Shown here: one piece after another, positions 1 to 54,247 of the stretch | Numbering within the stretch: the first letter of the stretch is position 1 | Layout: each line of letters opens with the position of its first letter | Assembly (NCBI GenBank): GCA_038062015.1 | Contig: JBBTXZ010000005.1 | Coordinates: 24,215 to 88,214, forward strand | Direction: 5' to 3' | Length of the DNA: 64,000 nt | Origin: Patescibacteria group bacterium | GTDB lineage: Bacteria; Patescibacteriota; Minisyncoccia; 2-02-FULL-40-12 | Position numbers and translations under genes: made by a program | Notes under the pieces: generated by a model | What the model saw: only the letters and a program-made list of their open reading frames with translations | What the model was told of the DNA's origin: nothing | The model's database searches: none

Positions 1-369
1 AGCAAACTTTGAAGCCGTTTTGAGCGCGGCTCCTAAATTTACCCTCCCGGGCATCCTGTCGGATATTCGTAAAGAGCTGGAAGGTGCTACTTCCCCTATG
101 GGATAAGACTTTGGACGTGGACCCAGGTTTTTTGAGGCAATTTCCCGTTTGACCCGACGCGCGTTTTTCTGATAAGCGATTAGTGATTCTCTCGTTGTCA
201 GCCAACGGCCGTTGGCTTCACGAAGAGCATCAATTCTCTGCTGGCGGCAAAGCCGGCTGATATGATCAATTTCATACCCAAACTCTCGAGCTAACTCGCT
301 TATCGGAATGTACTCGGTTTTGTTTTGGTTGTTGCCGTAAAAACCCGACAAATCATAACATCCAAGTCT
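1..369 (-). CDS. Partial CDS (5' portion; continues beyond the window start): excisionase/HTH_17-like DNA-binding protein, GC-rich
   Basis: Open minus-strand frame with no stops from ~369 to position 1. It encodes ...ISELAREFGYEIDHISRLCRQQRIDALREANGRWLTTRESLIAYQ..., which fits the excisionase-type HTH pattern (S..ELA...G.S...I.RL...G.I.A.K.G..W.I....L..Y). No in-frame ATG near the 5' end, so the start is uncertain (TTG possible). Local GC is well above the genome background. Confidence 0.4.
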
Positions 370-433
370 TTACCAAATACCCGACATCACGCTGAGCGGA
401 TATTCGTCGTGCTCAGCGCGACATTCCGACATA
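265..433. repeat. 169-bp perfect direct repeat, copy 1 (contains hairpin cgctgagcg-N13-cgctcagcg)
   Basis: Identical to 829..997 by direct reading. Contains the inverted repeat cacgctgagcggatattcgtcgtgctcagcgcg. Confidence 0.9.
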
Positions 434-828
434 TCCAATTTTTAAAGTATATGTCGTGTGTATATAAATTATCTTATATACCAAGATAGCGCGTCAATAG
501 GTTTTTGTTGATAAGTTTATTAAAATCCTTACCCGTGTCAAATCTATTAGGATTTCGCTTTGGCTGACATTTTTTGGAGGTACGAATAGCTTATCTCAAG
601 TTTTTTGATTTTTTTGACTCGATTTTTGATTTCAAAAGGCCTTAAGCCGTTTTTCATCAATTTTTTACTTTTTTGATAGTTTATTAATGACTTTCTATGA
701 TACTTTATATATGTTTTAGCTATTTATAATACTTTTATTTTAAGATTTTTCATGATTTATTCGTTTAATTTTTAAATTTAGTTTTAATAGTAAAAATAAC
801 GAAAACTGCGGCGCCGATAATATCCATT

Positions 829-10517: not shown

Positions 10518-11192
10518 ATGGCTATTCTTTATATTGTTGCCACGCCGATCGGCAATTTGAAAGATTTCACGACCCGTGCCATCGAAACCTTGAAAGAGGT
10601 TGATTTTATTTTAGCCGAAGATACTCGTGAAACCATTAAACTTTTAAACTTTTATACCATCAAGAAACCATTAATATCATACTTTCAGCATAGCCGACTT
10701 AGTAAGATTGAGTATATTTTGGATTTATTAAAACAGGGGAAAAGCCTGGCTTTGGTTTCTGATGCCGGCACGCCCGGAATAAATGATCCGGGCGGAAAAC
10801 TGGTTGCCGAGATTGTTAAAAGGTTTGGCGATTCCGTGAGAATAGTTCCTATCCCCGGGCCGAATGCGGCAATTACGGCATTAAGTATCTGTGGTTTAAA
10901 TGCTGACCGATTTATGTTTTTAGGCTATCTGCCTCATAAAAAGGGCCGACAAAAGTTTTTTACCGAAATCTTGAAATCACGATATCCCGTAATAATTTAT
11001 GAATCGCCCCATCGGATTTTAAAAACCCTGAATGAGCTAGACGGATTTGAAGAATTAAAAAACCGCGAAATTGTCGTCTGTCGCGAACTGACTAAAAAAT
11101 TCGAGACGATTTATCGCGGCACGATTTCCGAGGTTTTATTAAAAATTGAGAGAGGCATAGTAAAAGGGGAGTTTACTGTCGTTATAAAATGA
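10518..11192 (+). CDS. rsmI: 16S rRNA (cytidine1402-2'-O)-methyltransferase
   Basis: ILYIVATPIGNLKDFTTRAIETLKEVDFILAEDTR... tetrapyrrole-methylase fold typical of RsmI. ATG at 10518 preferred over the TTG at 10500. Confidence 0.85.
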   Translation: MAILYIVATPIGNLKDFTTRAIETLKEVDFILAEDTRETIKLLNFYTIKKPLISYFQHSRLSKIEYILDLLKQGKSLALVSDAGTPGINDPGGKLVAEIVKRFGDSVRIVPIPGPNAAITALSICGLNADRFMFLGYLPHKKGRQKFFTEILKSRYPVIIYESPHRILKTLNELDGFEELKNREIVVCRELTKKFETIYRGTISEVLLKIERGIVKGEFTVVIK

Positions 11193-11193
11193 T

Positions 11194-11229
11194 CCCTAAA
11201 TTTATGCTATAGCATAAATTTAGGGATAT
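11194..11229. promoter_or_regulatory. 36-bp perfect palindrome atccctaaatttatgctatagcataaatttagggat (terminator/operator) downstream of the PaaX-like gene
   Basis: Seen directly. A near-identical copy lies at 11800..11836 on the other side of the gene. Confidence 0.8.
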
Positions 11230-11783
11230 TATTCTAGATTGTATTTCTTTTTTAATTTAGTTTCACCGTCTATTTCGGTTATCTCGCCTAATTTTACAAA
11301 AGGTTTAACTTCAAAGAGTTTTAGTATAAACTCTACCTCGTTCTCTAATGGATAAGGATGAATCCAAACGCTTTTCTGGAACTGGTATAAGCCAAGCCCT
11401 TTTAGTTTTTCTCTTAATGCGTTAGCCCGACCTTTAAATTTATTAGGGATGTCAAACATAACAAAACGCCATTTGCCGTCCCATTTTTTCATTGGCCTGA
11501 TTTTTAATTTTTCAAGATCGTATCCAAGTATTTTCTTTTTTCCATTTTTGGATAATTCGACTTTCATACTGCCATCGGGATTTTCTTTTATAATGATAAG
11601 TTTTCGTTCTTTAAGAGCGTGGATTACTTTGCCGATTTTATTATTGTATTTTCTTTTGATGAATTTATTTTTATTTAAGGCACTGAAAATGTTTGGAGCC
11701 ATTGCTCCGGTGATAGTAATTAATCCAAGTAATCCAACTCCTATTAGTATTTTTTTGATCAGTTCTTTTCTATCCGGATTCAT
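11229..11783 (-). CDS. Membrane-anchored winged-helix + PaaX_C/Cas2-fold domain protein (putative autoregulator), paralog of 43635..44231
   Basis: N-terminal TM helix, a wHTH-like middle, and C-terminal WDGKWRFVMFDIP...RANALREKL..LG..QFQKSVW (Cas2/PaaX-C-like pattern). Bracketed by two near-identical palindromes. Confidence 0.5.
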   Translation of the reverse strand: MNPDRKELIKKILIGVGLLGLITITGAMAPNIFSALNKNKFIKRKYNNKIGKVIHALKERKLIIIKENPDGSMKVELSKNGKKKILGYDLEKLKIRPMKKWDGKWRFVMFDIPNKFKGRANALREKLKGLGLYQFQKSVWIHPYPLENEVEFILKLFEVKPFVKLGEITEIDGETKLKKKYNLE

Positions 11784-11799
11784 TGTTTGAATTATATCT

Positions 11800-11836
11800 C
11801 CATCCCTAAAATTATGCTATAGCATAATTTTAGGGA
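11800..11836. promoter_or_regulatory. Palindrome ccatccctaaaattatgctatagcataattttagggatgg upstream of the PaaX-like gene start (candidate operator)
   Basis: Seen directly, ~17 bp upstream of the start codon at 11783. Confidence 0.7.
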
Positions 11837-11942
11837 TGGAGAGGAACGGGGAATAATAATACGGGGAATAATAATTATGAGGATAATTATTTGATTATCA
11901 GCGACTTTATTTTTGAGTATATAGTTGATATGATTTTGTATT

Positions 11943-13439
11943 ATGGCCGGAAAATTTTCTATTACAACTGCGATACCGTATGTAAATGCCAAAGGGCATG
12001 TGGGTTTTGCCATGGAGTTGATTCAAGCTGATGTGCTTGCCCGATTTGAGCGGCTTAGAGGAAATAATGTTTTTTTCTTAACCGGAACAGATGAAAATGC
12101 TCTCAAAAATGTGCAGGCGGCGGAAAAAGCGAATAAACCAATTAGAGAATTTATCGATGAACACGCTAAAAGTTTCATTGAGCTTGCTAAATTGCTCAAT
12201 ATATCAAATGACGATTTTATAAGAACTACAGAAGGAAGGCACATAAAGGGGGCCCAGAAACTTTGGCGGGCCTGTGAAGCGGCCGGCGATATTTATAAGA
12301 AAAAATATAAAGGTTTGTATTGCGTCGGATGCGAGGAGTTTAAAACAGAAAAAGATTTAATAGACGGATTATGCCCCGAGCATAATACTAAACTCGAAGA
12401 AATCGAAGAAGAAAACTACTTTTTCAGATTGTCTAAGTATCAGGATAAAGTCGAGAAACTTATTTTTTCAGATGAGTTGCGAATTGTGCCGATAACCCGG
12501 AAGAACGAGGCCTTAAGTTTTATCCGTCAAGGATTGCAAGATTTCAGTATTTCTCGCAGCCGGGAACGAGCTAAAAATTGGGGGATTCCTGTTCCCGGGG
12601 ACGACAGTCAGATAATTTACGTGTGGTATGACGCGTTAACCTGGTTTATAAACGCTCTCGGGTATTCTGATAACGAAGAAAAGTTTAAATTGTGGTGGAG
12701 TGATCGCAACATAGATCTTATCGGCAAGGGGATAAATAGATTTCATACGATTTACTGGCCGGTGATGTTAATTTCCGCCGGTCTTCTTCCGCCCAAGGAA
12801 ATATATATTCACGGATACATAACCATTGGCGGCGAAAAAATATCCAAATCCCTCGGCAACACAATTGACCCAGTTGATTTAGTCGGAAAATACGGAGTAG
12901 AAATTGTTCGTTATTTTCTTTTGCGGGAAATTCCGTCAGACGGCGACGGTGATTTTTCTGTCAAAAAATTAGAGGCCCGCCACAATGCGGATTTAGCTAA
13001 TAATTTAGGGAATTTGGTTTCGCGGGTTGTCGCTTTGATAGAAAAGTTTTTCAGCGGCAGTTTTAACTACTCCCGAAGATTTGTTTTAAAAGAAGTTGAC
13101 GATAAAGTGATTGATATATGGAAAAAGTACAATGAAAACATAAATAATTTTAAGCTCCACATTGCTTTAGAAAATATTTTTTCTTTGGTTGATTTCGCTA
13201 ATTTATATATTGATGAGCATAAACCCTGGTCTTTGGGCGATAATCCGGAGCATCTGAATGAAGTTATGACAAATCTGATTGTGATTTTACTTAATGTGGC
13301 TTGGTTTTTAAAGCCGTTTCTGCCTGAAACTTCAAACAGGATTTTCGGTATTTTAGGCGCGGATAAAGATGGTAAATCGTGGGAAGAAAAACCGTTTCAG
13401 GTCAAACCGGAAATTTTATTTCCGAAAATAGAGCAATGA
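11943..13439 (+). CDS. metG: Methionyl-tRNA synthetase (short form, no C-terminal tRNA-binding domain)
   Basis: N-terminal ITTAIPYVNAKGHVG region, zinc knuckle CVGCEEF...CPEH, and KISKS (KMSKS) motif. Confidence 0.9.
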   Translation: MAGKFSITTAIPYVNAKGHVGFAMELIQADVLARFERLRGNNVFFLTGTDENALKNVQAAEKANKPIREFIDEHAKSFIELAKLLNISNDDFIRTTEGRHIKGAQKLWRACEAAGDIYKKKYKGLYCVGCEEFKTEKDLIDGLCPEHNTKLEEIEEENYFFRLSKYQDKVEKLIFSDELRIVPITRKNEALSFIRQGLQDFSISRSRERAKNWGIPVPGDDSQIIYVWYDALTWFINALGYSDNEEKFKLWWSDRNIDLIGKGINRFHTIYWPVMLISAGLLPPKEIYIHGYITIGGEKISKSLGNTIDPVDLVGKYGVEIVRYFLLREIPSDGDGDFSVKKLEARHNADLANNLGNLVSRVVALIEKFFSGSFNYSRRFVLKEVDDKVIDIWKKYNENINNFKLHIALENIFSLVDFANLYIDEHKPWSLGDNPEHLNEVMTNLIVILLNVAWFLKPFLPETSNRIFGILGADKDGKSWEEKPFQVKPEILFPKIEQ

Positions 13440-15988: not shown

Positions 15989-16627
15989 ATGAAAACAATC
16001 AAAGTTGACTTAAAAGGCGATTTTTCCGAGGCAATCCGGGAGGCGGTTGCGGTTTTAAAACTGGGCGGAACAATAATTTATCCAACCGATACCTTATACG
16101 CCCTTGGAGCGAATGCTCTTGAACTTGGTCCAGTTGAGCGGGTTTTTAAGATAAAAGACAGGGCCAGAGAAAAACCGTTGCCTCTCGCTGTCAGAAATGT
16201 ACAGTGGGCAAAAGAACTCTCCTTTATTTATAAAAAGGAAGAAAAAATTTTAAATTCGGTTTGGCCGGGAGCAGTGACCGTCGTTCTTCCTAAAAGAAAT
16301 ATAGTGTCTAGTATTGTAACGGCTGGCCAGCCAAGCGTGGCTCTGCGGGTGCCAAACTATCCTTTCGTGGACAGACTATTGGGCCATTTCGGTTACCCTT
16401 TGACTGCAACTTCAGCTAACATTTCCGGTGAGGAGGCTTCCAGAAAGATTTCAGAAGTGATTGATCTGTTCAAAGAAAATTACTATAAACCTGATTTAGT
16501 AATTGATGCCGGAGATTTACCTGAATCAGAGCCGTCAACGATTTTGGATTTGACTACGGACAGGCCGAAAATTTTGAGGGTTGGTCCAGTGAAGCCCGAG
16601 ACCTTAAGAAAATTATTGGAAGTATGA
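15989..16627 (+). CDS. tsaC: L-threonylcarbamoyladenylate synthase (YrdC/Sua5 family)
   Basis: YPTDTLYALGANAL... and KIKDRAREKPLPLAV, typical YrdC motifs. Confidence 0.8.
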   Translation: MKTIKVDLKGDFSEAIREAVAVLKLGGTIIYPTDTLYALGANALELGPVERVFKIKDRAREKPLPLAVRNVQWAKELSFIYKKEEKILNSVWPGAVTVVLPKRNIVSSIVTAGQPSVALRVPNYPFVDRLLGHFGYPLTATSANISGEEASRKISEVIDLFKENYYKPDLVIDAGDLPESEPSTILDLTTDRPKILRVGPVKPETLRKLLEV

Positions 16628-17790
16628 TTAAAGATTTAATTAAAAAAGAACTTACCCGCCAGAAAAAAGTGATCAATCTGATTCCCTCCGAAAACTATCC
16701 CTCCAAAAATGTTTCGGCGGCTTTAGGAAGCCAATTGACTTCAAAATATTCTGAAGGGTATCCGGGCAAAAGATATTATGCCGGGAATAAAGTAATGGAT
16801 GAAATTGAGTTGGAAGCGCAGAATTTAGCCCGTAAGGTTTTTGGCTTGTCAAAAAACTGGCATGTTAATGCCCAGCCGTATTCCGGCTCGCCGGCCAATA
16901 TGGCGGTTTATTACGCTTTGCTTGAACCGGGCGAAAAAATCATGGGAATGAGCCTGCCTTTTGGCGGCCATCTTACCCATGGCTGGAAAGTGAATTTTTC
17001 GGCGCGTTTCTATAAAGCCGTGCAGTATCAGGTGGGCAAAGATGGATTTCTTGATTATTCTGCGATTAGAAGGCTTGCCCTTAAAGAAAAGCCTAAAATC
17101 ATAGTGGCCGGCGCCACCGCTTATCCAAGAAAATTTGATTTTCAGAAATTTGGCACAATCGCCCGCGAGGCCGGCGCATATTTTCTTGCAGATATTTCAC
17201 ATGAGGCCGGGCTTATTGCGGCCAAGTTGCACCCCTCGCCGTTTCCGCATGCGGATATAGTGACTACTACAACCCATAAAACGCTTCGCGGCCCGCGAGC
17301 CGCAGTTATTTTTGCAAACCTAAAATCGGTGTTAGCGAAACGAAACGGCGTTGAAATGGCTAAAGCAATTGACCGGGCAGTGTTCCCGGGGCTTCAAGGT
17401 GGGCCTCATATGAATACAATCGCGGCAATGGGGATTGCTTTTGAGGAAGCATTGAAGCCGGATTTCAAAAATTACATCAAACAAGTGGTTAAAAACGCGA
17501 AAGTTTTAGCCAATGAATTAAAAAAGTACGGCTTCAATTTAGTTTCCGGCGGAACCGACAATCATCTTATTCTGGTTGATTTGAAAAACAAGAACATCTC
17601 GGGCCGCGAAGCCCAAGACCGTCTTGAGAAATCAGGCATTATCGTCAATCGAAATACCGTGCCAGGCGATGAATCGCCGTTTAATCCAAGCGGTCTTCGC
17701 CTCGGCACCCCGGCTGAAACCACTCGCGGAGCTAAAGAAAAAGATATGGTAAAAATCGCTCAAAAAATCGCCGAGATTTTGAAAAATTGA
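16624..17790 (+). CDS. glyA: Serine hydroxymethyltransferase
   Basis: SENYPS..., the TTTTHKTLRGPR PLP-lysine region, and overall SHMT pattern. Confidence 0.92.
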   Translation: MIKDLIKKELTRQKKVINLIPSENYPSKNVSAALGSQLTSKYSEGYPGKRYYAGNKVMDEIELEAQNLARKVFGLSKNWHVNAQPYSGSPANMAVYYALLEPGEKIMGMSLPFGGHLTHGWKVNFSARFYKAVQYQVGKDGFLDYSAIRRLALKEKPKIIVAGATAYPRKFDFQKFGTIAREAGAYFLADISHEAGLIAAKLHPSPFPHADIVTTTTHKTLRGPRAAVIFANLKSVLAKRNGVEMAKAIDRAVFPGLQGGPHMNTIAAMGIAFEEALKPDFKNYIKQVVKNAKVLANELKKYGFNLVSGGTDNHLILVDLKNKNISGREAQDRLEKSGIIVNRNTVPGDESPFNPSGLRLGTPAETTRGAKEKDMVKIAQKIAEILKN

Positions 17791-17826
17791 CATTTTAGTA
17801 ATTTCCTGTATAGTTTAATATACCAA

Positions 17827-17850: not shown

Positions 17851-17892
17851 CAGAGAGCAATTCCGCTTTTTGAAAACATAGGAGAACTGACC

Positions 17893-18648
17893 ATGTCTGA
17901 ACAATTGGTCGGTGCGTTGCCGGGCGAAGTGCTTGGTACGCTGGCGGACATTATGCTGAAGCTCAAAAACGGCGGTATCTCGCCCGACGAGCTTAAGCAG
18001 TTCGCCAAACGGGAAAATCCGTTCGAGATCGTTGTAGTGTCGGCCCCGAAGGCCGCGCCAACGATCCAGACAATCGAGGAGCTTCTGGATGACTGGGTCA
18101 ACTTCTATCGAAACGTTTTCGCGGAGGACCTTGACTTAACTAGCCTGCGAGTACCCGACCGGCACGAGGGCTTTGACCGGCTTATCATCGTCGCCAAGGG
18201 TATGTCCCCGGAACGTGTTTTCCAAAAGATGCAAGAATTCTTTACTTGCTGGAAATACACGGGTAACCGGAGTCTCGACGAAGTCGTGTTCGACGCCGAC
18301 GGCGTGGAAAAGAAGCGCCGCCGCTCCGACCGCGAAACCCACGCTGTCTGGGTGCGCAACCGGATTGAGGCCGATCAAGAATTGAAGAATCAATCGGCCA
18401 ACCAGCTCAAGGAGTGCGGCATTCCCGGGATCACCTTGGAAGCGCGCGAGCTTTACGAGCTTAAATACTTCAGGGAAACCGGAAAGCACCTCGACATCAG
18501 CAATTGGACGCTTTGCGCGGGTTCGCGCCGCGTCGGTGGCCATGTGCCGGGCATGGGTTGGGACGGCGGCGACCGCAGGGTCGAGGTCTATTGGTTCAAT
18601 CCTTCGCATGCCTTCGCCTATCTCCGTTCCCGCGAAGCAGTTTCGTAA
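17893..18648 (+). CDS. Hypothetical protein, GC-rich (horizontally acquired island) with its own RBS and terminator
   Basis: Marked GC shift relative to neighbours. Strong SD (aggaga) 7 nt upstream. Stem-loop terminator follows. No recognisable domain. Confidence 0.6.
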   Translation: MSEQLVGALPGEVLGTLADIMLKLKNGGISPDELKQFAKRENPFEIVVVSAPKAAPTIQTIEELLDDWVNFYRNVFAEDLDLTSLRVPDRHEGFDRLIIVAKGMSPERVFQKMQEFFTCWKYTGNRSLDEVVFDADGVEKKRRRSDRETHAVWVRNRIEADQELKNQSANQLKECGIPGITLEARELYELKYFRETGKHLDISNWTLCAGSRRVGGHVPGMGWDGGDRRVEVYWFNPSHAFAYLRSREAVS

Positions 18649-18681
18649 TCTTGTACCTTTAATCTTATAACCTTTCTTCCG

Positions 18682-18728
18682 CGGCTCTACTAAAGGAGGT
18701 GATTCTAAAGTAGAGCCGTTTTATTTTT
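18682..18728 (+). terminator. Rho-independent terminator (cggctctac...gtagagccg + T-run)
   Basis: 9-bp stem followed by ttttattttt. Confidence 0.75.
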
Positions 18729-18770
18729 CGAAAAATTGTATAAAAAGTAAATTTCTATTAATTTATAGTT

Positions 18771-19568
18771 ATGTTTATCGACGGCAGAAAGATCGCCTTT
18801 AAAATTTTAGATGAGCTGAAAGAGACCCTTCGACAAGCTCAAGGCAAGAAAAAATTAAGACTTGTCGGGATTTTGGTTGGGGAGAAACCAGAATTAAGAA
18901 AATTCATTGAATTAAAGAAAAAAGCGGTTCAAGAAATCGGGGTAGATTTCAGAATTTATGAATTTCCGGAAAATATCAGCAATAATCAGTTAAGAGAAGA
19001 ATTGAATAAAATAGTTAAAGCAAAAGTAAATCACGGAGTGATTATTGAATTGCCATTACCAAGCCATTTAAATACCCAGTATCTATTAAATACAATTCCC
19101 GAAAAAAAAGATGTTGATGTTTTGTCGCAAAAAAGCCAGGGTTTATTCTTCACGGGTCGAAGCAAAATTCTTCCGCCCTCTGTTGAAGCGGTGAAGCAGA
19201 TTTTTGAAGAATATAATATTGATCCGAAAGGAAAAACCGCGGCGGTTTTCGGATATGGATTTTTAGTCGGGAAATTAGTTAGTCATTGGTTGATTCAGCA
19301 GGGGGCGACGGTTTCAATAATCACCGAATTCACGAAAGGGCCGGAAAAATTTTCTAGAGAAGCGGATATAGTAATTTCCGGGGTGGGTAAGCAGAACTTG
19401 ATTACAGCAGATATGGTGAAAGATGGGGCAGCGGTGATTGATTTTGGCAAAGACGTTGATTTTGAAAATGTTTCTCAAAAAGCCGGATTGATAACGCCGC
19501 CTGTCGGCGGGGTCGGGCCGATAGTTGTGGCCAGTGTTTTAAAGAATTTATTGGAATTGTGGAGTTAA
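18771..19568 (+). CDS. folD: Bifunctional 5,10-methylene-THF dehydrogenase / cyclohydrolase
   Basis: Conserved FolD N-terminal region and GKxxxVVGxS-like Rossmann segment (AAVFGYGFLVGK). Confidence 0.85.
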   Translation: MFIDGRKIAFKILDELKETLRQAQGKKKLRLVGILVGEKPELRKFIELKKKAVQEIGVDFRIYEFPENISNNQLREELNKIVKAKVNHGVIIELPLPSHLNTQYLLNTIPEKKDVDVLSQKSQGLFFTGRSKILPPSVEAVKQIFEEYNIDPKGKTAAVFGYGFLVGKLVSHWLIQQGATVSIITEFTKGPEKFSREADIVISGVGKQNLITADMVKDGAAVIDFGKDVDFENVSQKAGLITPPVGGVGPIVVASVLKNLLELWS

Positions 19569-20010: not shown

Positions 20011-20094
20011 TGCCGAGAGAGGGAGTCGAACCCTCAAGCCCTTGCGGACGGCTGATCTTGAGTCAGCTGCGGTTGCCAATTTCGCCACCTCGGC
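20011..20094 (-). tRNA. tRNA-Leu (anticodon CAA), type II with long variable arm; CCA not encoded
   Basis: Manual fold: acceptor GCCGAGG/UCUCGGC, anticodon stem GCUGA/UCAGC with loop CUCAAGA, long variable arm, T-arm GAGGG-UUCGACU-CCCUC. Confidence 0.8.
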
Positions 20095-23653: not shown

Positions 23654-24259
23654 ATGAAGAAATTACTAGCCGACCCCAAACATCCAAGGGAAGAAAAGAC
23701 CCTTGTTTTAATCAAGCCAGATGCCGTGAAAAGGGGGTTGGTCGGCGAAATAATCAAACGTTTTGAAAGCCGGGGACTTAAGATTATTGGTCTGAAAATG
23801 GTTCACGGCGCGCCAAAAGATTTTGACAAGCATTATCCTAAAAGCAAGGGATGGATTGCTAATTTAGGCAAAAGAACTATAGAAACCTACAAAAAATACA
23901 GTTACAGCTTGAAAAACGATTTTGGCACCGATGATCCGTTTAGAATCGGCAAAATTTTCCGTAACTGGCTGATTGATTTTATGGCTTCCGGGCCGGTGGT
24001 CAAGATTTTGATTGAAGGGGCTCATGCCATTGATGTGGTCAGAAAAATTGTCGGCGACACCCAGCCTCATTTTGCCCTGACCGGAACTATCCGCGGCGAT
24101 TTTAGTGTTGACTCGGCCGGCTCGGCGAATAAGTCAAAGCGGGCCGTTCATAATTTAGTTCACGCTTCGGGCGATAAAAATGAAGTCCGAAACGAAATAA
24201 TACTCTGGTTTAATCCCGAAGAAATCTGCGACTACAAGAGAGTGGAAGAGTTGATTTAA
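23654..24259 (+). CDS. ndk: Nucleoside-diphosphate kinase (with an internal insertion)
   Basis: TLVLIKPDAVKRGLVGEII... and active-site NLVHASGD. ATG at 23654. Confidence 0.8.
   Translation: MKKLLADPKHPREEKTLVLIKPDAVKRGLVGEIIKRFESRGLKIIGLKMVHGAPKDFDKHYPKSKGWIANLGKRTIETYKKYSYSLKNDFGTDDPFRIGKIFRNWLIDFMASGPVVKILIEGAHAIDVVRKIVGDTQPHFALTGTIRGDFSVDSAGSANKSKRAVHNLVHASGDKNEVRNEIILWFNPEEICDYKRVEELI
24203..24259. repeat. 56-bp direct repeat, copy 1 (the ndk 3' end)
   Basis: tctggtttaatcccgaagaaatctgcgactacaagagagtggaagagttgatttaa is repeated at 24998..25053. Confidence 0.9.
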
Positions 24260-24959: not shown

Positions 24960-24997
24960 AAGTAAATTATACGAAGTATTAAGAGATGGTCAAAGAT

Positions 24998-25053
24998 TCT
25001 GGTTTAATCCCGAAGAAATCTGCGACTACAAGAGAGTGGAAGAGTTGATTTAA
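24998..25053. repeat. 56-bp direct repeat, copy 2 (duplicate of the ndk 3' end), followed by the original ndk terminator
   Basis: Identical to 24203..24259. Followed by aaaaaccgctttaagcggttttttgg. Confidence 0.9.
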
Positions 25054-25084: not shown

Positions 25085-25091
25085 TTTTAGT

Positions 25092-25161
25092 CGGGCTGCC
25101 GGGATTTGCACCCGGGCTAAATCGACCCCATCGACTCGTGCTGCTGCTACACCACAGCCCG
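25092..25161 (-). tRNA. tRNA-Pro(GGG)-like cloverleaf with non-canonical D-loop and T-loop (could be a tRNA-like element)
   Basis: Manual fold on the minus strand: acceptor CGGGCUG/CAGCCCG (7 bp), D-stem GUGU/GCAC, anticodon stem AGUCG/CGAUU with loop AUGGGGU (U33, GGG, G37), T-arm CCGGG-UGCAAAU-CCCGG. Lacks G18G19 and has G55. Begins 6 nt after the rpmB stop. Confidence 0.45.
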
Positions 25162-34149: not shown

Positions 34150-34226
34150 CATCTACAAAATTACAAATCATTTACGAATATACAAATTTGTATATTTGTA
34201 GGGATTTGTAAATTCGTAGATATTTA

Positions 34227-36216: not shown

Positions 36217-36292
36217 TACTACGAAGTACGAATCAGTCCGAATGTACGAATTCGTATATTCGTAAAGATTCGTAAATTCGTAGTTTAACATT

Positions 36293-36921: not shown

Positions 36922-36997
36922 ATCTACGAATTTACCAATTCATTACAAATATACAAATATTTGTATATTTGTAGAGATTTGTAATTTTGTAGATAAA

Positions 36998-50580: not shown

Positions 50581-50589
50581 TGTTCCTTG

Positions 50590-50965
50590 GTAAATCTATA
50601 AGCCGAATTCTGTATTTGTGTAGTCATTTATCTGGCCCATCGATTACTTTCAGGGTCAAGCGGCACTCCCTAAACTACATAGAGTCCAGGGTACGGCCTT
50701 GCACCCGGGTAAGGATTTAGCGGACCGATATGTTGCCATACCAGTACTCGTTTCACCCCGATGCTTTAAACCCATCGCATCGGACTAAGCTTAATTTGAT
50801 AAAATCAAATCTTTGGGTTTGCCTTCTTTGGAGTCGCCTCCTTGGACGTCTCTTGTCGCACCTCTATCCTTTCGGACGGCGGGCGTTACCCGCTACCATT
50901 TTAACTACTCATTTTTAAATAAGTACGTGGGTGTTCGGACTTTCCTCTCTCTGTTAAAATATATA
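50590..50965 (-). ncRNA. rnpB: RNase P RNA (bacterial type)
   Basis: Minus strand contains a P3 hairpin followed by GAGGAAAGUCCGAAC (P4 5' strand), GGGUAACGCC, a GAAAGG...GGUGCGACAAGAGAC region resembling GAAAGGGUGCGGUAAGAGCGCACC, and ACAGAAUUCGGCUUAUAG (P4 3' strand, cf. ACAGAACCCGGCUUAUCGG). The + strand ORFs here are spurious. Confidence 0.65.
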
Positions 50966-51014
50966 ACAGAGAGTGACTACCCGATTTGCCAAAGAACTAT
51001 TATATTATAGCAAA

Positions 51015-51866: not shown

Positions 51867-52475
51867 ATGGCAAGAGTAGCACTCTGCGATATTCGTGGAC
51901 TGCTCGTTGATACGATCGAGAAGCTGTCGGGCGAAGATGGTACCGAGTGGGCTGAAGAGTTCAAGCAGATTCTCCGTAAGGGAGTATCGGGTTTGCTCAG
52001 GAAGTTCACCGAAGTCATGGCCACCGGCGTCCAGAGGTTCGTCGCCAGAGACGCTTTCGGCGAGAACAACGCTGACGGCATCAAGTTCTATCTCTGGCCG
52101 AATTTCGTGAACAACTACCTCGGTAAGATCGAGGAAGACGTGAAGCCGGCGACCATCGTCATCCACCGTCTCGAGAAGGCATCGCGCAACGACAAAATCA
52201 TGGCCGAGCTGGGCATTGACATCAAGACCAAGAAGGGGGTCATCAAGTTGGCCCACTTCCGCGAGATGCTCAAAGTTCAAGCCCAAGGCCAGGAAGGTCT
52301 TCTTCTTGTTAACGGTTACGCAAACATGGCGTATATCGAAGATGAGAAAGGGAAGGTCTGGGCCGTGTACGCGTACTGGTATTCGTCGTATCGCGAGTGG
52401 CGCGTCTTTGCCGACTCTGTCGAGGACCCGTGCGAGTGGTTTCAGGGCGACCGGGTTCTCTCGCAAGTATCCTAG
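51867..52475 (+). CDS. DGR target (variable) protein, GC-rich; the C-terminal ~36 aa are encoded by the variable repeat
   Basis: Strong SD aaggagg 7 nt upstream. The 3' end (52357..52462) matches the downstream TR except at TR adenines. A terminator follows. Confidence 0.8.
   Translation: MARVALCDIRGLLVDTIEKLSGEDGTEWAEEFKQILRKGVSGLLRKFTEVMATGVQRFVARDAFGENNADGIKFYLWPNFVNNYLGKIEEDVKPATIVIHRLEKASRNDKIMAELGIDIKTKKGVIKLAHFREMLKVQAQGQEGLLLVNGYANMAYIEDEKGKVWAVYAYWYSSYREWRVFADSVEDPCEWFQGDRVLSQVS
52357..52462 (+). repeat. DGR variable repeat (VR)
   Basis: 106-nt alignment with 52788..52893. All 16 mismatches lie where the TR has A (VR has T, C or G). Confidence 0.85.
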
Positions 52476-52512
52476 GATCTTGGGTCTTCGGACTTTTGGT
52501 CCTTGGGTCCGC

Positions 52513-52555
52513 CGGGTCGGTTGGAGTTTTCAACCGACCCGTTTTCTTTTACAAA
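52513..52555 (+). terminator. Hairpin + T-run downstream of the VR (gggtcggttgg...ccaaccgaccc gttttctttt)
   Basis: Seen directly. May also act as the DGR target-recognition hairpin. Confidence 0.6.
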
Positions 52556-52787
52556 AGTTTCCAGTAAGATATATTTGGATAGTAGGCGAATCTGCCGGCG
52601 GTTACGGCTTCCGGCGGCCGAACTCCAGGCGTGCATAATGGTTTTGAATATAGGAGCCTTAAAAACGAAGATACTTGGTGCGGAATATTAGGGGAATAAG
52701 GAAAATTATATTCCGAGGGTCCCGAATTCGATACAGTCCTGAGAGCATTCAAGGGGCAGTGGCACAGAAGATATTCCGTACGATAAT

Positions 52788-52893
52788 CTGGGCCGTGAAC
52801 GCGAACTGGAATTCGTCGAATCGCGAGTGGAACGTCAATGCCAACTCTGTCGAGAACCCGAACGAGTGGAATCAGGGCAACCAGGTTCTCTCG
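52788..52893 (+). repeat. DGR template repeat (TR), non-coding, rich in AAC codon-equivalents
   Basis: In the VR frame it would encode WAVNANWNSSNREWNVNANSVENPNEWNQGNQ. The ORF 52675..52989 in the track is an artefact of this repeat. Confidence 0.85.
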
Positions 52894-52920
52894 AAAATCT
52901 CTTCGTTCAATCCGCCTTAT

Positions 52921-53196
52921 CTATTGGCGGGTTGTTTTTTTCTGCCAGCCGCCGAGCATCCGGCCGACCTCTTCAAGTTTTATAGATAGAGCAATATACT
53001 GTTTACTATTCAATAGTTTTAGTTCCCACATTATCTGAAAAAGGAATTTTAGTATATCAAACGAGTCAGATGCTTTATTGAGATATATCAGTTTATCCGG
53101 TTTTGTTTTCCGACTCGCGATAAAAATATTCTGAATCGTTTCAATAAATAAAGATTCAATTTTAGCTCCAAGTCCGAATCTGGTCAGTTTGTCCAA
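52921..53196 (-). CDS. avd: Avd-like accessory variability determinant (four-helix-bundle, 23S-IVS protein family), antisense to TR and RT
   Basis: C-terminus ...YIALSIKLEEVGRMLGGWQKK matches the IVS/Avd family ending (E-I/V-G-K/R-M-L-x-G-L/W). TTG start, with no in-frame ATG upstream. Confidence 0.55.
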   Translation of the reverse strand: MDKLTRFGLGAKIESLFIETIQNIFIASRKTKPDKLIYLNKASDSFDILKFLFQIMWELKLLNSKQYIALSIKLEEVGRMLGGWQKKTTRQ

Positions 53197-53263
53197 ATGA
53201 ATCCAATAACCATGCCAAATCTTGTAAGCGGCAATAAGCTTTTGGAGTATCGGCAGAGTAAGG

Positions 53264-54247
53264 TTGGGGGGGGGGCGTAGAAGTCATCTTTATTATGAAG
53301 ATATTATCTCACTTGAAAATATTTTGGAAGCGTGGAAAGAATTCATCAAAGACAAAAGAAAGAAAAAAGATGTCTATGAGTTCCAGTTGAATCTGATGGA
53401 TAATATTTTGGAACTCCACCGAGATTTAAAGAGCTTCAAATATATTCATGGTGGTTATAAGGTATTCAAAATCAACGATCCGAAACCAAGAAACATCCAT
53501 AAAGCCGATGTCAGAGACAGATTACTGCATCACGCCATTTACAGAATTTTGTATCCGTTTTTTGATAGGACGTTTATTAGTGACTCTTTTTCCTGCAGAA
53601 ACTACAAAGGGACTCACAGGGCCTTAAACAGATTCAGAAGGTTTGGTTACAAGGTCAGTAAAAATAACACTAAAACCTGCTGGGTTTTAAAATGCGACAT
53701 CAGGAAATTCTTTGAAAATATTAGCCAAGATATTCTAATCGGTATTTTAAAAAAGTATATTCCAGATAAAAAAGTAATCTGGCTGCTTGAAAAAGTAATC
53801 CGCAGTTTTTCTTCTGGTTTGCCCCTCGGAAATCTTACTTCCCAACTCTTAATCAATATCTATATGAATGAATTTGACCAGTTTGTGAAACATAAATTAA
53901 GGATTAAATATTATATCAGATATGCTGATGATTTTGTCATCTTTTCGGGAGATAGAAACTGGCTTGAAAGTAAAATAGAACCGATTAGGAACTTCTTATC
54001 TGACAGATTGAAATTAGAGCTTCATTCGGATAAGATTTTCATTAAAACCTTAGCTTCGGGAGTTGATTTTCTCGGCTGGGTTCATTTTCCGGACCACAGA
54101 ATTCTAAGAACAACTACCAAAAGAAGAATGTTTAGAAGATTAAAAGAATCAAGAAATCAAGAAACTCTTAATTCTTATTTGGGGTTGATTAAACACGGGA
54201 ACACTGGAAAGATAAAAAAGAAGATTTATTTAATTCAAAAATTATGA
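53264..54247 (+). CDS. DGR reverse transcriptase
   Basis: RT motifs, including the catalytic YADD (IRYADDFVIF) and an upstream ...LPLGNLTSQLLINIYMNEFD (motif 4/5-like). TTG start flanked by a 10-G homopolymer. Confidence 0.85.
   Translation: MGGGRRSHLYYEDIISLENILEAWKEFIKDKRKKKDVYEFQLNLMDNILELHRDLKSFKYIHGGYKVFKINDPKPRNIHKADVRDRLLHHAIYRILYPFFDRTFISDSFSCRNYKGTHRALNRFRRFGYKVSKNNTKTCWVLKCDIRKFFENISQDILIGILKKYIPDKKVIWLLEKVIRSFSSGLPLGNLTSQLLINIYMNEFDQFVKHKLRIKYYIRYADDFVIFSGDRNWLESKIEPIRNFLSDRLKLELHSDKIFIKTLASGVDFLGWVHFPDHRILRTTTKRRMFRRLKESRNQETLNSYLGLIKHGNTGKIKKKIYLIQKL

What the first reader, a model, noticed from the sequence alone, without database searches (positions are those of the whole stretch)
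17893..18648. GC-rich orphan gene island between glyA and folD
A 756-bp ORF with clearly higher GC than its neighbours, a strong SD, and its own hairpin terminator. It interrupts the one-carbon pair glyA/folD. There is no recognisable domain. The C-terminus is Gly/Trp-rich (...GGHVPGMGWDGGDRRVEVYWFNPSHAFAY). Its composition is similar to the DGR target gene, but it shows no nucleotide match to the TR, so it is not a current DGR target as far as can be seen. Antisense ORFs over it are compositional shadows.
Basis: partly seen in the sequence, partly recalled or inferred. Interest (0 to 1): 0.5.

Follow-up and report, generated by a model that had tools for sequence, protein, structure and literature searches.

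The report
Leftover target gene of lost retroelement
The GC-rich "orphan" between glyA and folD belongs to a large family of lectin-fold binding proteins that ultra-small (CPR) bacteria normally rewrite with a diversity-generating retroelement (DGR); in this genome the rewriting machinery next to it has been deleted, so the gene is an ordinary frozen relic.

Summary
The ORF (17893-18648, 251 aa) is real. It is the most GC-rich gene in the window: 56.9% GC and 70% GC3, against 41.1±4.7% for the other genes. It has a Shine-Dalgarno (SD) site, a near-consensus promoter and a conserved hairpin followed by a T-run.

About 45% of 163 surveyed family genes have an adenine-mismatched template repeat (TR) about 400 nt downstream, followed by a reverse transcriptase (RT).

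The two closest orthologues sit in the same leuS-sua5-glyA-X-folD-PAP2 synteny:
- One carries X-TR-bAvd-RT with 21 adenine-only mismatches between its variable repeat (VR) and its TR.
- One has a decayed VR/TR pair and a truncated RT.

The window lacks this ~1.7 kb entirely. Its C-terminal 42 codons still differ from the orthologue's TR mainly at TR adenines (22/33 against 10/86 elsewhere, p=7e-9). The only TR in the window (52787-52901) does not match the ORF.

Verdict: a relic DGR variable-protein gene, still under purifying selection. High GC is a family-wide trait, not evidence of recent transfer, and its cause is unexplained.

The parts
16624..17790 (+). glyA (serine hydroxymethyltransferase), the upstream synteny anchor
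   Evidence: PF00464, E=9.7e-158. It holds the same position in orthologous loci L008 and L010.
17787..17814 (+). Sigma-70-like promoter: TTGACA, 16-nt spacer, TATAGT (11 of 12 consensus positions)
   Evidence: Consensus scan. Function is inferred.
17880..17884 (+). Shine-Dalgarno AGGAG, 8 nt upstream of the ATG
   Evidence: Read directly from the sequence.
17893..18648 (+). Relic DGR variable-protein gene (251 aa). It belongs to a large Pfam-less family found almost entirely in Patescibacteria.
   Evidence: dN/dS of the scaffold is 0.17-0.26. Only 2 of 54 highly conserved family columns deviate, against a family median of 3.
17893..18072 (+). N-terminal two-helix module (helices at residues 11-25 and 31-38) plus a low-confidence linker (residues ~39-60). 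This part varies between family members.
   Evidence: AF2 secondary structure and pLDDT; alignment A1.
18073..18519 (+). Constant scaffold of the C-type-lectin/FGE-like fold (residues 61-209). It carries the family motifs W-V-R-D/N-R-x-E-A-D and H-L-D...T-L-C-A-G-S-R.
18520..18645 (+). Former variable repeat (VR; residues 210-251), now without a template
   Evidence: It is homologous to the VRs of L006 and L008, which have adenine-only mismatches to their TRs. Against the L008 TR, 22 of 33 adenine sites differ compared with 10 of 86 other sites, p=7e-9. dN/dS is 0.7-0.9. No TR for it exists in the window.
18650..18657 (+). CTTGTACC motif inside a pyrimidine-rich spacer that starts right after the stop codon
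   Evidence: Found with at most 1 mismatch within 45 nt of the stop codon in 50 of 77 family genes. It is absent after the two orthologous TRs inspected. A role as a homing-site element is inferred.
18681..18729 (+). Conserved hairpin (18681-18719) plus T-run. It looks like an intrinsic terminator and may also be the counterpart of the post-VR hairpin described for DGRs.
   Evidence: -21.5 kcal/mol. There are 5 compensatory base pairs across 4 orthologues.
18753..18770 (+). Junction of the ~1.68-kb deletion. In the orthologue L008 this interval holds TR, bAvd and RT.
   Evidence: blastn: window 17851-18752 aligns to L008 10045-10948, and window 18771 onward aligns to L008 12630 onward. L008 TR is at 11136-11260, bAvd at 11294-11578 (- strand) and RT at 11701-12633.
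18771..19568 (+). folD, the downstream synteny anchor
   Evidence: PF00763 and PF02882. In L008 and L010 the RT stop codon overlaps the folD start codon.

Best explanation
The ORF encodes a small protein with no recognisable signal sequence or membrane segment (judged by reading the sequence). It has a short N-terminal helical module and a C-type-lectin/FGE-like domain. The last ~40 residues of that domain form the ligand-binding variable surface.

In relatives this surface is rewritten by a diversity-generating retroelement (DGR):
- A template repeat (TR) about 400 nt downstream is transcribed.
- A reverse transcriptase, helped by bAvd, copies it and misincorporates opposite adenines.
- The cDNA replaces the variable repeat (VR).

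An ancestor of this organism carried such a cassette (target, TR, bAvd, RT) between glyA and folD. In this lineage a ~1.7-kb deletion removed TR, bAvd and RT. The target gene kept its promoter, SD site, post-VR spacer and hairpin.

The gene is therefore a frozen, single-specificity binding protein that is still kept by selection. The window's other DGR (51.9-54.2 kb) cannot rewrite it, because its TR has no homology to this VR.

Shown: family membership, fold, the adenine signature, synteny, absence of a TR in the window.
Inferred: the direction of the event (loss rather than gain), current expression, binding function, cytoplasmic location.
For: 1. Family size and range. There are 129 homologues and 2,342 cluster representatives. 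Loci come from many Patescibacteria lineages. None was found in 2.9 million viral contigs.

3. Family members are genuine DGR targets.
- L006: the 100-nt VR probe gives 86 identical positions, 14 mismatches at TR adenines and 0 others, with an RT downstream.
- Across 163 distinct genes, 74 have a TR with at most 5 non-adenine mismatches per 100 nt. In the 38 TR-linked genes of the metagenome set the TR lies 364-448 nt downstream in 37.
- All 49 of these with at least 2.5 kb of downstream sequence have an RT.

4. Orthologous synteny.
- L008 (78% aa identity) reads leuS-sua5-glyA-target-TR-bAvd(-)-RT-folD-PAP2. Its VR/TR pair has 98 identical positions, 21 adenine mismatches and 0 others.
- L010 (65% aa identity) has the same order, but its RT is cut to 134 aa and its VR/TR pair shows 73 identical, 21 adenine mismatches, 19 others and a 6-nt gap.
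- The window reads target, 122 nt, folD.

5. Adenine signature. The window VR compared with the L008 TR has mismatches at 22 of 33 adenine sites and 10 of 86 other sites (Fisher p=7e-9).

6. Selection. The scaffold has dN/dS 0.17-0.26 and the VR 0.69-0.89. The protein deviates at 2 of 54 conserved columns.

7. The post-stop spacer motif and the hairpin with compensatory pairs are retained.

8. No matching TR exists in 64 kb on either strand. The locus is identical in 3 further assemblies.
Against: - Only 64 kb of the genome could be scanned for a TR. The genome is not in the species-representative collection: a TR-style pattern did not even recover the VR itself.
- The gene trees of the flanking genes are mosaic. 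leuS and glyA group L008 with L010, whereas sua5, the ORF, folD and PAP2 (by a small margin) group the window with L008. Loss rather than gain is therefore an inference from parsimony and the stereotyped cassette layout.
- The purifying selection is measured over the whole path to the orthologues, not specifically since the loss.
- Expression, the ligand and the cellular location are untested.
Confidence: 0.82

Rival explanations
1. The gene is still a live DGR target, rewritten in trans by a matching TR located outside the window. The TR could be served by the RT/bAvd at 52.9-54.2 kb or by another cassette.
For: - Remote targets exist in this family. Paralogues P0030 and P0085 in one MAG have almost identical scaffolds, but their VRs differ at about 20 clustered sites, and neither has a TR or RT within 10 kb.
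- 39 of the 163 surveyed genes stand alone with at least 2 kb of sequence on both sides.
- The relic keeps the post-VR motif and the hairpin.
- An intact RT and bAvd lie in the same window.
Against: - Its cognate TR-bAvd-RT, present at this exact position in the orthologues, is missing here.
- The only TR in the window is unrelated: 31 non-adenine mismatches in 126 nt, which is background.
- The consensus VR is identical in four assemblies. This is weak evidence, because the active-looking orthologue P0002 is also identical across its assemblies.
Confidence: 0.1
2. The stand-alone gene is the ancestral state. The relatives L008 and L010 later gained a TR-bAvd-RT next to it, so nothing was lost here.
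For: leuS and glyA identities group L008 with L010 and leave the window outside. On that tree one gain is as parsimonious as one loss.
Against: - The target, ~400 nt, TR, RT layout is the stereotyped family arrangement: 37 of the 38 TR-linked genes in the metagenome set.
- The window VR already carries the adenine-site signature of a TR like that of L008.
- sua5, the ORF, folD and PAP2 (by a small margin) group the window with L008, which would make L010 the outgroup and imply loss.
- L010 shows the same cassette midway through decay.
Confidence: 0.05
3. It is a recently acquired foreign island. The GC excess would mark lateral transfer of an otherwise unrelated orphan gene.
For: - Its GC and codon use differ strongly from the host and from highly expressed genes.
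- Gene GC correlates only weakly with flank GC across the family, r=0.30.
Against: - The same slot and the same GC3 (0.67-0.71) occur in three species whose flanking genes have dS of 1.1 to above 3.
- The GC excess is family-wide: 67 of 68 and 79 of 81 loci.
- The cassette's own RT is AT-rich (31% against 37% for the flanks), so the cassette is not uniformly foreign.
- No mobility genes flank the gene in the window.
Confidence: 0.03

Closest known systems
C-type-lectin-fold DGR variable proteins with solved structures: TvpA (Treponema denticola, 2Y3C), Mtd (Bordetella phage BPP-1, 1YU0), TaqVP (Thermus aquaticus, 5VF4)
   Same: - The variable residues sit in the C-terminal ~40 residues.
- In family members the VR is paired with a downstream TR that differs only at adenines, next to an RT and bAvd.
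   Different: - There is no detectable sequence similarity: no Pfam FGE-sulfatase or DUF1566 hit, no PDB sequence hit, and Foldseek is not significant.
- The protein is much smaller (251 aa).
- It has no recognisable signal sequence or membrane segment (read from the sequence), and no phage-tail context was seen.
- This particular copy has no TR or RT of its own.
Cell-encoded DGRs of Patescibacteria/CPR: 'DGR clade 2' of Roux et al. 2021 (PMC8144416) and the 'CPR set' with VR classes of unknown fold, UVR1-6, of Wu et al. 2018 (PMC5758913)
   Same: - The host group is the same.
- The location is chromosomal and non-viral.
- The targets are small and carry no annotation.
- The RTs are of the RVT_1 type.
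   Different: I could not map this family onto a named UVR class, because the supplementary alignments were not consulted. Here the fold is assigned as C-type lectin, and the copy is cassette-less.
Formylglycine-generating-enzyme (FGE)/sulfatase-modifying-factor fold, including EgtB, OvoA, PvdO and PorK domains
   Different: There is no sequence match to the FGE family. Whether the family's conserved Cys, His, Asp and Glu residues correspond to FGE catalytic or metal-binding sites was not examined. An enzymatic role is not supported.
Non-adjacent ('remote') DGR targets and decayed DGRs
   Same: Like a remote target, the gene is a VR-bearing gene with no TR or RT beside it. Like a decayed DGR, it forms a series with L008 (intact) and L010 (RT truncated, VR drifting).
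   Different: A remote target by definition still matches a TR somewhere. None was found in the sequence available.

Membership tests
DGR variable (target) protein family | Homology to genes whose 3' VR pairs with a TR through adenine-specific mismatches | tested here: met
   - Homologue in L006: 86 identical, 14 adenine mismatches and 0 others per 100 nt.
- Orthologue in L008: 98 identical, 21 adenine mismatches, 0 others.
- 74 of 163 family genes are TR-linked.
DGR variable (target) protein family | C-type-lectin (or Ig) fold with the variable residues on a C-terminal surface | tested here: met
   [not shown]
DGR variable (target) protein family | The VR of this gene bears an adenine-site substitution signature relative to a TR | tested here: met
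   Against the orthologue's TR (L008), 22 of 33 adenine sites are mismatched compared with 10 of 86 other sites, p=7e-9. This is an indirect test, because the gene's own TR is absent.
Functional (complete) DGR cassette at this locus | A cognate TR within the same genome | tested here: not met
   No candidate exists in 64 kb on either strand. The rest of the genome could not be reached.
Functional (complete) DGR cassette at this locus | A DGR-type reverse transcriptase and accessory protein (bAvd) adjacent to the target | tested here: not met
   Only 122 nt separate the stop codon from folD. The orthologue's 1.68-kb TR-bAvd-RT segment is missing. An RT and bAvd exist 34 kb away but belong to another cassette.
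Functional (complete) DGR cassette at this locus | Cis elements 3' of the VR (an IMH-like sequence and an inverted repeat) | tested here: inconclusive
   The conserved CTTGTACC spacer motif and the hairpin with compensatory pairs are present. Their role in homing, as opposed to transcription termination, is not established.
Functional (complete) DGR cassette at this locus | Ongoing diversification of the VR in the population | not testable with these tools
   This needs read-level data. The consensus sequences of four assemblies are identical.
Formylglycine-generating enzyme (Pfam FGE-sulfatase) | A sequence match to the family profile | tested here: not met
   No Pfam hit at E<=10 apart from a spurious 17-residue match. 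There is only fold-level resemblance.
Orphan (lineage-restricted, homologue-less) gene | No detectable homologues outside the genome or species | tested here: not met
   129 homologues, 2,342 cluster representatives, and 219 hits in species-representative genomes.

The most novel reading that the evidence does not exclude
DGR variable-protein genes of CPR bacteria are held at a distinct GC-rich and C3-rich synonymous codon usage, about 10-13 GC points above the host and about 19 above their own RT. This is kept through speciation, and even after the retroelement is lost, by a force tied to being a DGR target.

Candidate forces are selection against A/T on both strands near an adenine-mutagenic RT, or a DNA-structural requirement for homing. 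The alternative is simply lateral transfer.

The two unrelated target genes in this window have almost identical third-position profiles (A/C/G/T of 0.13/0.38/0.33/0.16 and 0.13/0.39/0.31/0.17, against 0.27/0.19/0.22/0.33 for host genes).
Probability: 0.2. Interest if true: 0.55.

Novelty: new member of a known kind. Interest (0 to 1): 0.3.

Why it matters
The result turns an apparent compositional orphan into an annotated object: a member of a very large, Pfam-less family of lectin-fold DGR variable proteins in Patescibacteria.

It also documents three stages of DGR decay at one chromosomal site: intact, RT-truncated, and cassette deleted with the target kept. This suggests that a diversified binding protein can stay useful once its specificity is fixed.

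Practical points for annotation:
- A model of this family would label thousands of 'hypothetical' CPR proteins.
- GC-rich single-gene 'islands' in AT-rich CPR genomes should be checked for DGR-target ancestry before horizontal transfer is invoked.

The unexplained GC-rich codon usage of target genes, next to their AT-rich RT, is a small open question about DGR biology.

Tried and rejected
- Pfam, NCBIfam, PHROGs and PADLOC scans of the protein gave nothing meaningful.
- A profile search against PDB sequences gave no hit below E=1.
- Foldseek against the PDB was not significant. The afdb50 library was unavailable.
- BLASTP and hhalign between this family and the family of the window's active DGR target showed no significant homology. 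hhalign gave 1% probability, although it aligned VR to VR. The two targets therefore share at most a fold.
A relaxed 70-nt pattern then found nothing in genome contigs, not even the VR, so the genome is not in that collection and the test says nothing.
- The viral-contig scan found no relatives, so a phage origin is not supported.
- The idea that adenine mutagenesis explains the whole-gene GC excess was rejected, because T at third codon positions is halved as well as A.
- The idea that translational selection explains it was rejected, because codon choices differ from those of tuf and fusA.
- Collapse of VR onto TR during assembly was rejected as the cause of the missing segment. The gap starts ~105 nt after the VR and removes the RT up to the folD start. 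Four assemblies agree.
- Rfam and tRNA scans found nothing at the locus.

Full report
**Observation**

The ORF at 17893-18648 (+, 251 aa) exists as described. Its GC is 56.9% and its GC3 is 70.2%. The other 59 long ORFs of the window average 41.1% GC (sd 4.7) and 42% GC3, so z is about 3.75 on both measures. It is the most GC-rich gene in the window. Only the DGR target gene at 51867-52475 is comparable, at 54.7% GC and 72% GC3.

Other features check out:
- AGGAG lies 8 nt before the ATG.
- A TTGACA-16-TATAGT promoter-like site overlaps the glyA stop codon.
- A hairpin at 18681-18719 (-21.5 kcal/mol) is followed by a T-run.
- The neighbours are SHMT/glyA and folD.
- Pfam, NCBIfam, PHROGs and PADLOC give nothing.

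**Not an orphan**

A word-seeded search found 129 homologues, down to 33% identity. All are unnamed or 'hypothetical', those with a source name are from Patescibacteria/CPR, and none has a Pfam hit. An exhaustive profile search found 2,342 representatives of 50%-identity clusters, 1,152 of them at E<=1e-30.

Species-representative genomes hold 219 relatives. They come from Yanofsky-, Lipton-, Portnoy-, Nomura-, Staskawicz-, Nealson-, Doudna-, Moran-, Wolfe-, Vogel-, Giovannoni- and Falkowbacteria, Kazan, Paceibacterota and others, often with several copies per genome. A few records carry other labels, such as 'uncultured Gammaproteobacteria' or Syntrophobacterales. I take these for mislabelled bins, but did not check. 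No relative occurs in 2.9 million viral contigs.

**Anatomy of the protein**

The alignments show three parts:
- a variable N-terminus;
- a strongly conserved core with the motifs YAVWVRDRVEADEELKN-SAND and ETGKHLD-N-TLCAGSR;
- a hypervariable stretch of ~35 residues that ends in the conserved LRSR-AVS.

AlphaFold2, run with the 120-sequence alignment, gives pLDDT 91.8. It predicts a small two-helix N-terminal module, a low-confidence linker, and a compact domain from residue ~61 to the end with pLDDT 94-99.

- dozens of animal C-type lectins

Three of these (TvpA, Mtd, TaqVP) are DGR variable proteins. As a caveat, Foldseek on the same model found nothing significant, and a sequence profile search of the PDB found nothing.

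**The family is a DGR target family**

In locus L006 the homologue P0052 is followed by a direct repeat of its last ~118 nt. Every mismatch in the repeat falls on an adenine of the downstream copy, and an RVT_1 reverse transcriptase follows.

I surveyed 80 distinct genes from metagenome contigs and 83 from species-representative genomes. For each gene I scanned for an ungapped match to its last 100 VR nucleotides and classed mismatches as 'TR has A' or 'other'.
- 38 and 36 genes, respectively, have a TR with at most 5 non-adenine mismatches.
- In the metagenome set, 37 of those 38 TRs lie 364-448 nt downstream.
- All 24 and all 25 such genes with at least 2.5 kb of downstream sequence have an RT there.
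- 8 and 10 genes show decayed pairs or other repeats.
- 14 and 25 genes stand alone with at least 2 kb of sequence on both sides.

Stand-alone copies can still be live targets. Two paralogues in one MAG (L001 and L005) have nearly identical scaffolds, but their VRs differ at about 20 clustered positions, and neither has a TR or RT within 10 kb.

**The orthologous locus**

The two closest relatives are P0002 (78% identity) and P0003 (65%). Both come from the same aquifer metagenomes (Hainich well H51) and lie in the same gene order, leuS-sua5-glyA-X-...-folD-PAP2.

L008 looks active:
- The target's VR (10713-10837) pairs with a TR at 11136-11260: 98 identical positions, 21 mismatches at TR adenines, 0 others.
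- A bAvd gene lies on the minus strand (11294-11578; PF22296, 45 bits).
- A 310-aa RT (11701-12633) follows, and its stop codon overlaps the folD start codon.

L010 is decaying:
- The TR is still present.
- The VR has drifted: 73 identical, 21 adenine mismatches, 19 others, and a 6-nt gap.
- Only the C-terminal 134 aa of the RT remain.

The window lacks the cassette. blastn aligns 17851-18752 to L008 10045-10948 (82% identity, running ~105 nt past the stop codon). It then aligns 18771 onward to L008 12630 onward, which is folD. The ~1.68 kb carrying TR, bAvd and RT is absent.

This is not an assembly collapse. The gap is not bounded by the VR/TR repeat, and three other assemblies give the identical 981-nt glyA-to-folD interval.

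**Signature of past diversification**

When the window's VR-equivalent (18520-18645) is aligned to the L008 TR, 22 of 33 TR-adenine positions differ, against 10 of 86 other positions (Fisher p=7e-9). Between orthologues the VR has dN/dS of 0.69-0.89, while the scaffold has 0.17-0.26.

The window protein deviates from the family at only 2 of 54 columns that are at least 85% conserved, against a family median of 3. It does not look like a pseudogene.

**No template here**

An adenine-tolerant scan of both strands of the window finds no TR for this VR. The best candidate has 31 non-adenine mismatches in 126 nt, which is background level. The same scan recovers the window's real VR/TR pair (52357-52471 and 52787-52901) with 96 identical positions, 18 adenine mismatches and 1 other.

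That second DGR is complete:
- a target gene at 51867-52475;
- a TR;
- a bAvd on the minus strand at 52921-53196 (PF22296, 47 bits);
- an RT at 53264-54247.

I could not scan the rest of the genome. A 70-nt 'VR base or A' pattern found nothing in the species-representative collection, not even the VR, so the genome is not held there.

**Cis elements**

Directly after the stop codon the family has a pyrimidine-rich spacer. CTTGTACC (at most 1 mismatch) occurs within 45 nt of the stop in 50 of 77 genes. A hairpin and a T-run follow.

In the four closest orthologues the hairpin keeps its pairing through 5 compensatory changes, and its loop holds a conserved AAGGAGGTGAT. The motif is absent after the two orthologous TRs inspected. 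The window's active DGR target has the same layout of stop codon, spacer, hairpin and T-run.

As summarised in the introduction of Wu et al. 2018 (PMC5758913), DGRs carry an IMH sequence at the VR end and a GC-rich inverted repeat downstream that promotes homing. Whether the elements seen here serve homing, termination or both is inferred, not shown.

**Composition**

The GC excess is a family trait and not a mark of recent import.
- Gene GC exceeds flank GC in 67 of 68 metagenome loci (mean +11.5 points) and in 79 of 81 genome loci (mean +9.9 points).
- Within cassettes, the target averages 49.6% GC, the RT 31.0% and the flanks 36.7% (n=31).
- Along the gene, the N-terminal part averages 47%, the scaffold 46.5% and the VR 62% (with only 11.5% A), against 37.7% for the flanks.

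The three orthologues keep GC3 of 0.67-0.71, while their flanking genes have GC3 of 0.34-0.45 and dS of 1.1 to above 3. The ORF's dS is only 0.6-1.0.

The shift is not specific to adenine: T at third codon positions is halved too. The codon choices are not those of tuf or fusA. The two unrelated target genes of the window have nearly identical third-position profiles. I have no tested explanation for this.

**Interpretation**

The gene is the surviving variable-protein gene of a DGR that once sat between glyA and folD. Its TR, bAvd and RT were deleted in this lineage, which froze one VR variant: RRVGGHVPGMGWDGGDRRVEVYWFNPSHAFAY.

It most likely still works as a fixed-specificity binding protein. 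I see no signal sequence or membrane segment on reading the sequence, and its ligand is unknown.

The rival explanations are:
- a live remote target (about 10%);
- a gain in the relatives rather than a loss here (about 5%);
- a recently acquired foreign island (about 3%).

**Comparison with the literature**

CPR bacteria are known to be rich in chromosomal DGRs with small unannotated targets. Roux et al. 2021 (PMC8144416) describe a clade of almost entirely cell-encoded DGRs restricted to Patescibacteria. They note that their method misses remote targets. Wu et al. 2018 (PMC5758913) left most CPR VR classes without an assigned fold.

This finding is therefore a new, cassette-less member of a known kind. 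The fold assignment for the family and a three-stage decay series are modest additions.

Noticed in passing
window 51867-54247: A complete, active-looking DGR:
- VR at 52357-52471;
- TR at 52787-52901 (96 identical, 18 adenine mismatches, 1 other);
- bAvd on the opposite strand at 52921-53196;
- RT at 53264-54247, which is 55% identical to the RT lost from the glyA-folD site.
   Followed up: partly
window 17893-18648 and 51867-52475; loci L001-L174: DGR target genes are about 10-13 GC points richer than their host flanks, while their own RT is about 6 points poorer. The two unrelated targets of this window share nearly identical third-codon-position profiles. These differ from both average and highly expressed host genes. 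The cause is unknown.
   Followed up: partly
window 18649-18729; the 90 nt after the stop codon in family loci: A CTTGTACC-type, pyrimidine-rich spacer sits directly after the stop codon in 50 of 77 family genes, followed by a hairpin and a T-run. In the four closest orthologues the hairpin loop holds AAGGAGGTGAT, a perfect Shine-Dalgarno-like sequence. The stem shows 5 compensatory pairs.
   Followed up: partly
L001 10001-10705 and L005 10001-10732 (same MAG, GCA_024654575.1): Two paralogues have different N-terminal modules and nearly identical lectin scaffolds. Their VRs differ at about 20 clustered positions, and neither has a TR or RT within 10 kb. They appear to be remote targets of one unseen TR.
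   Followed up: partly
L008 9600-10019 (- strand): In the orthologue with the intact DGR, a 139-aa ORF lies between glyA and the target gene. It has helix-turn-helix matches close to Pfam's thresholds (best HTH_23, E=3e-5; several are transposase-type). The window has no counterpart.
   Followed up: no
window 267-434 and 825-992: A 168-nt direct repeat, 98% identical and 558 nt apart, lies in a region with only short ORFs. Its nature is unknown.
   Followed up: no
window 24199-24259 and 24993-25053: A 61-nt repeat (97% identical) ends in a stop codon in both copies. The second copy lies just upstream of tRNA-Pro (25090-25161, - strand). It may be a duplicated gene 3' end.
   Followed up: no
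window 34151-34222, 36224-36286, 36922-36995: Short arrays of TTTGTA/TTCGTA-type repeats recur between genes in the 34-37 kb region, which I take to be the ribosomal-protein cluster (not annotated here).
   Followed up: no
window 50583-50992 (-) and 20011-20094 (-): Bacterial RNase P RNA (class A, 113 bits) and tRNA-Leu(CAA). Both are ordinary housekeeping RNAs.
   Followed up: yes
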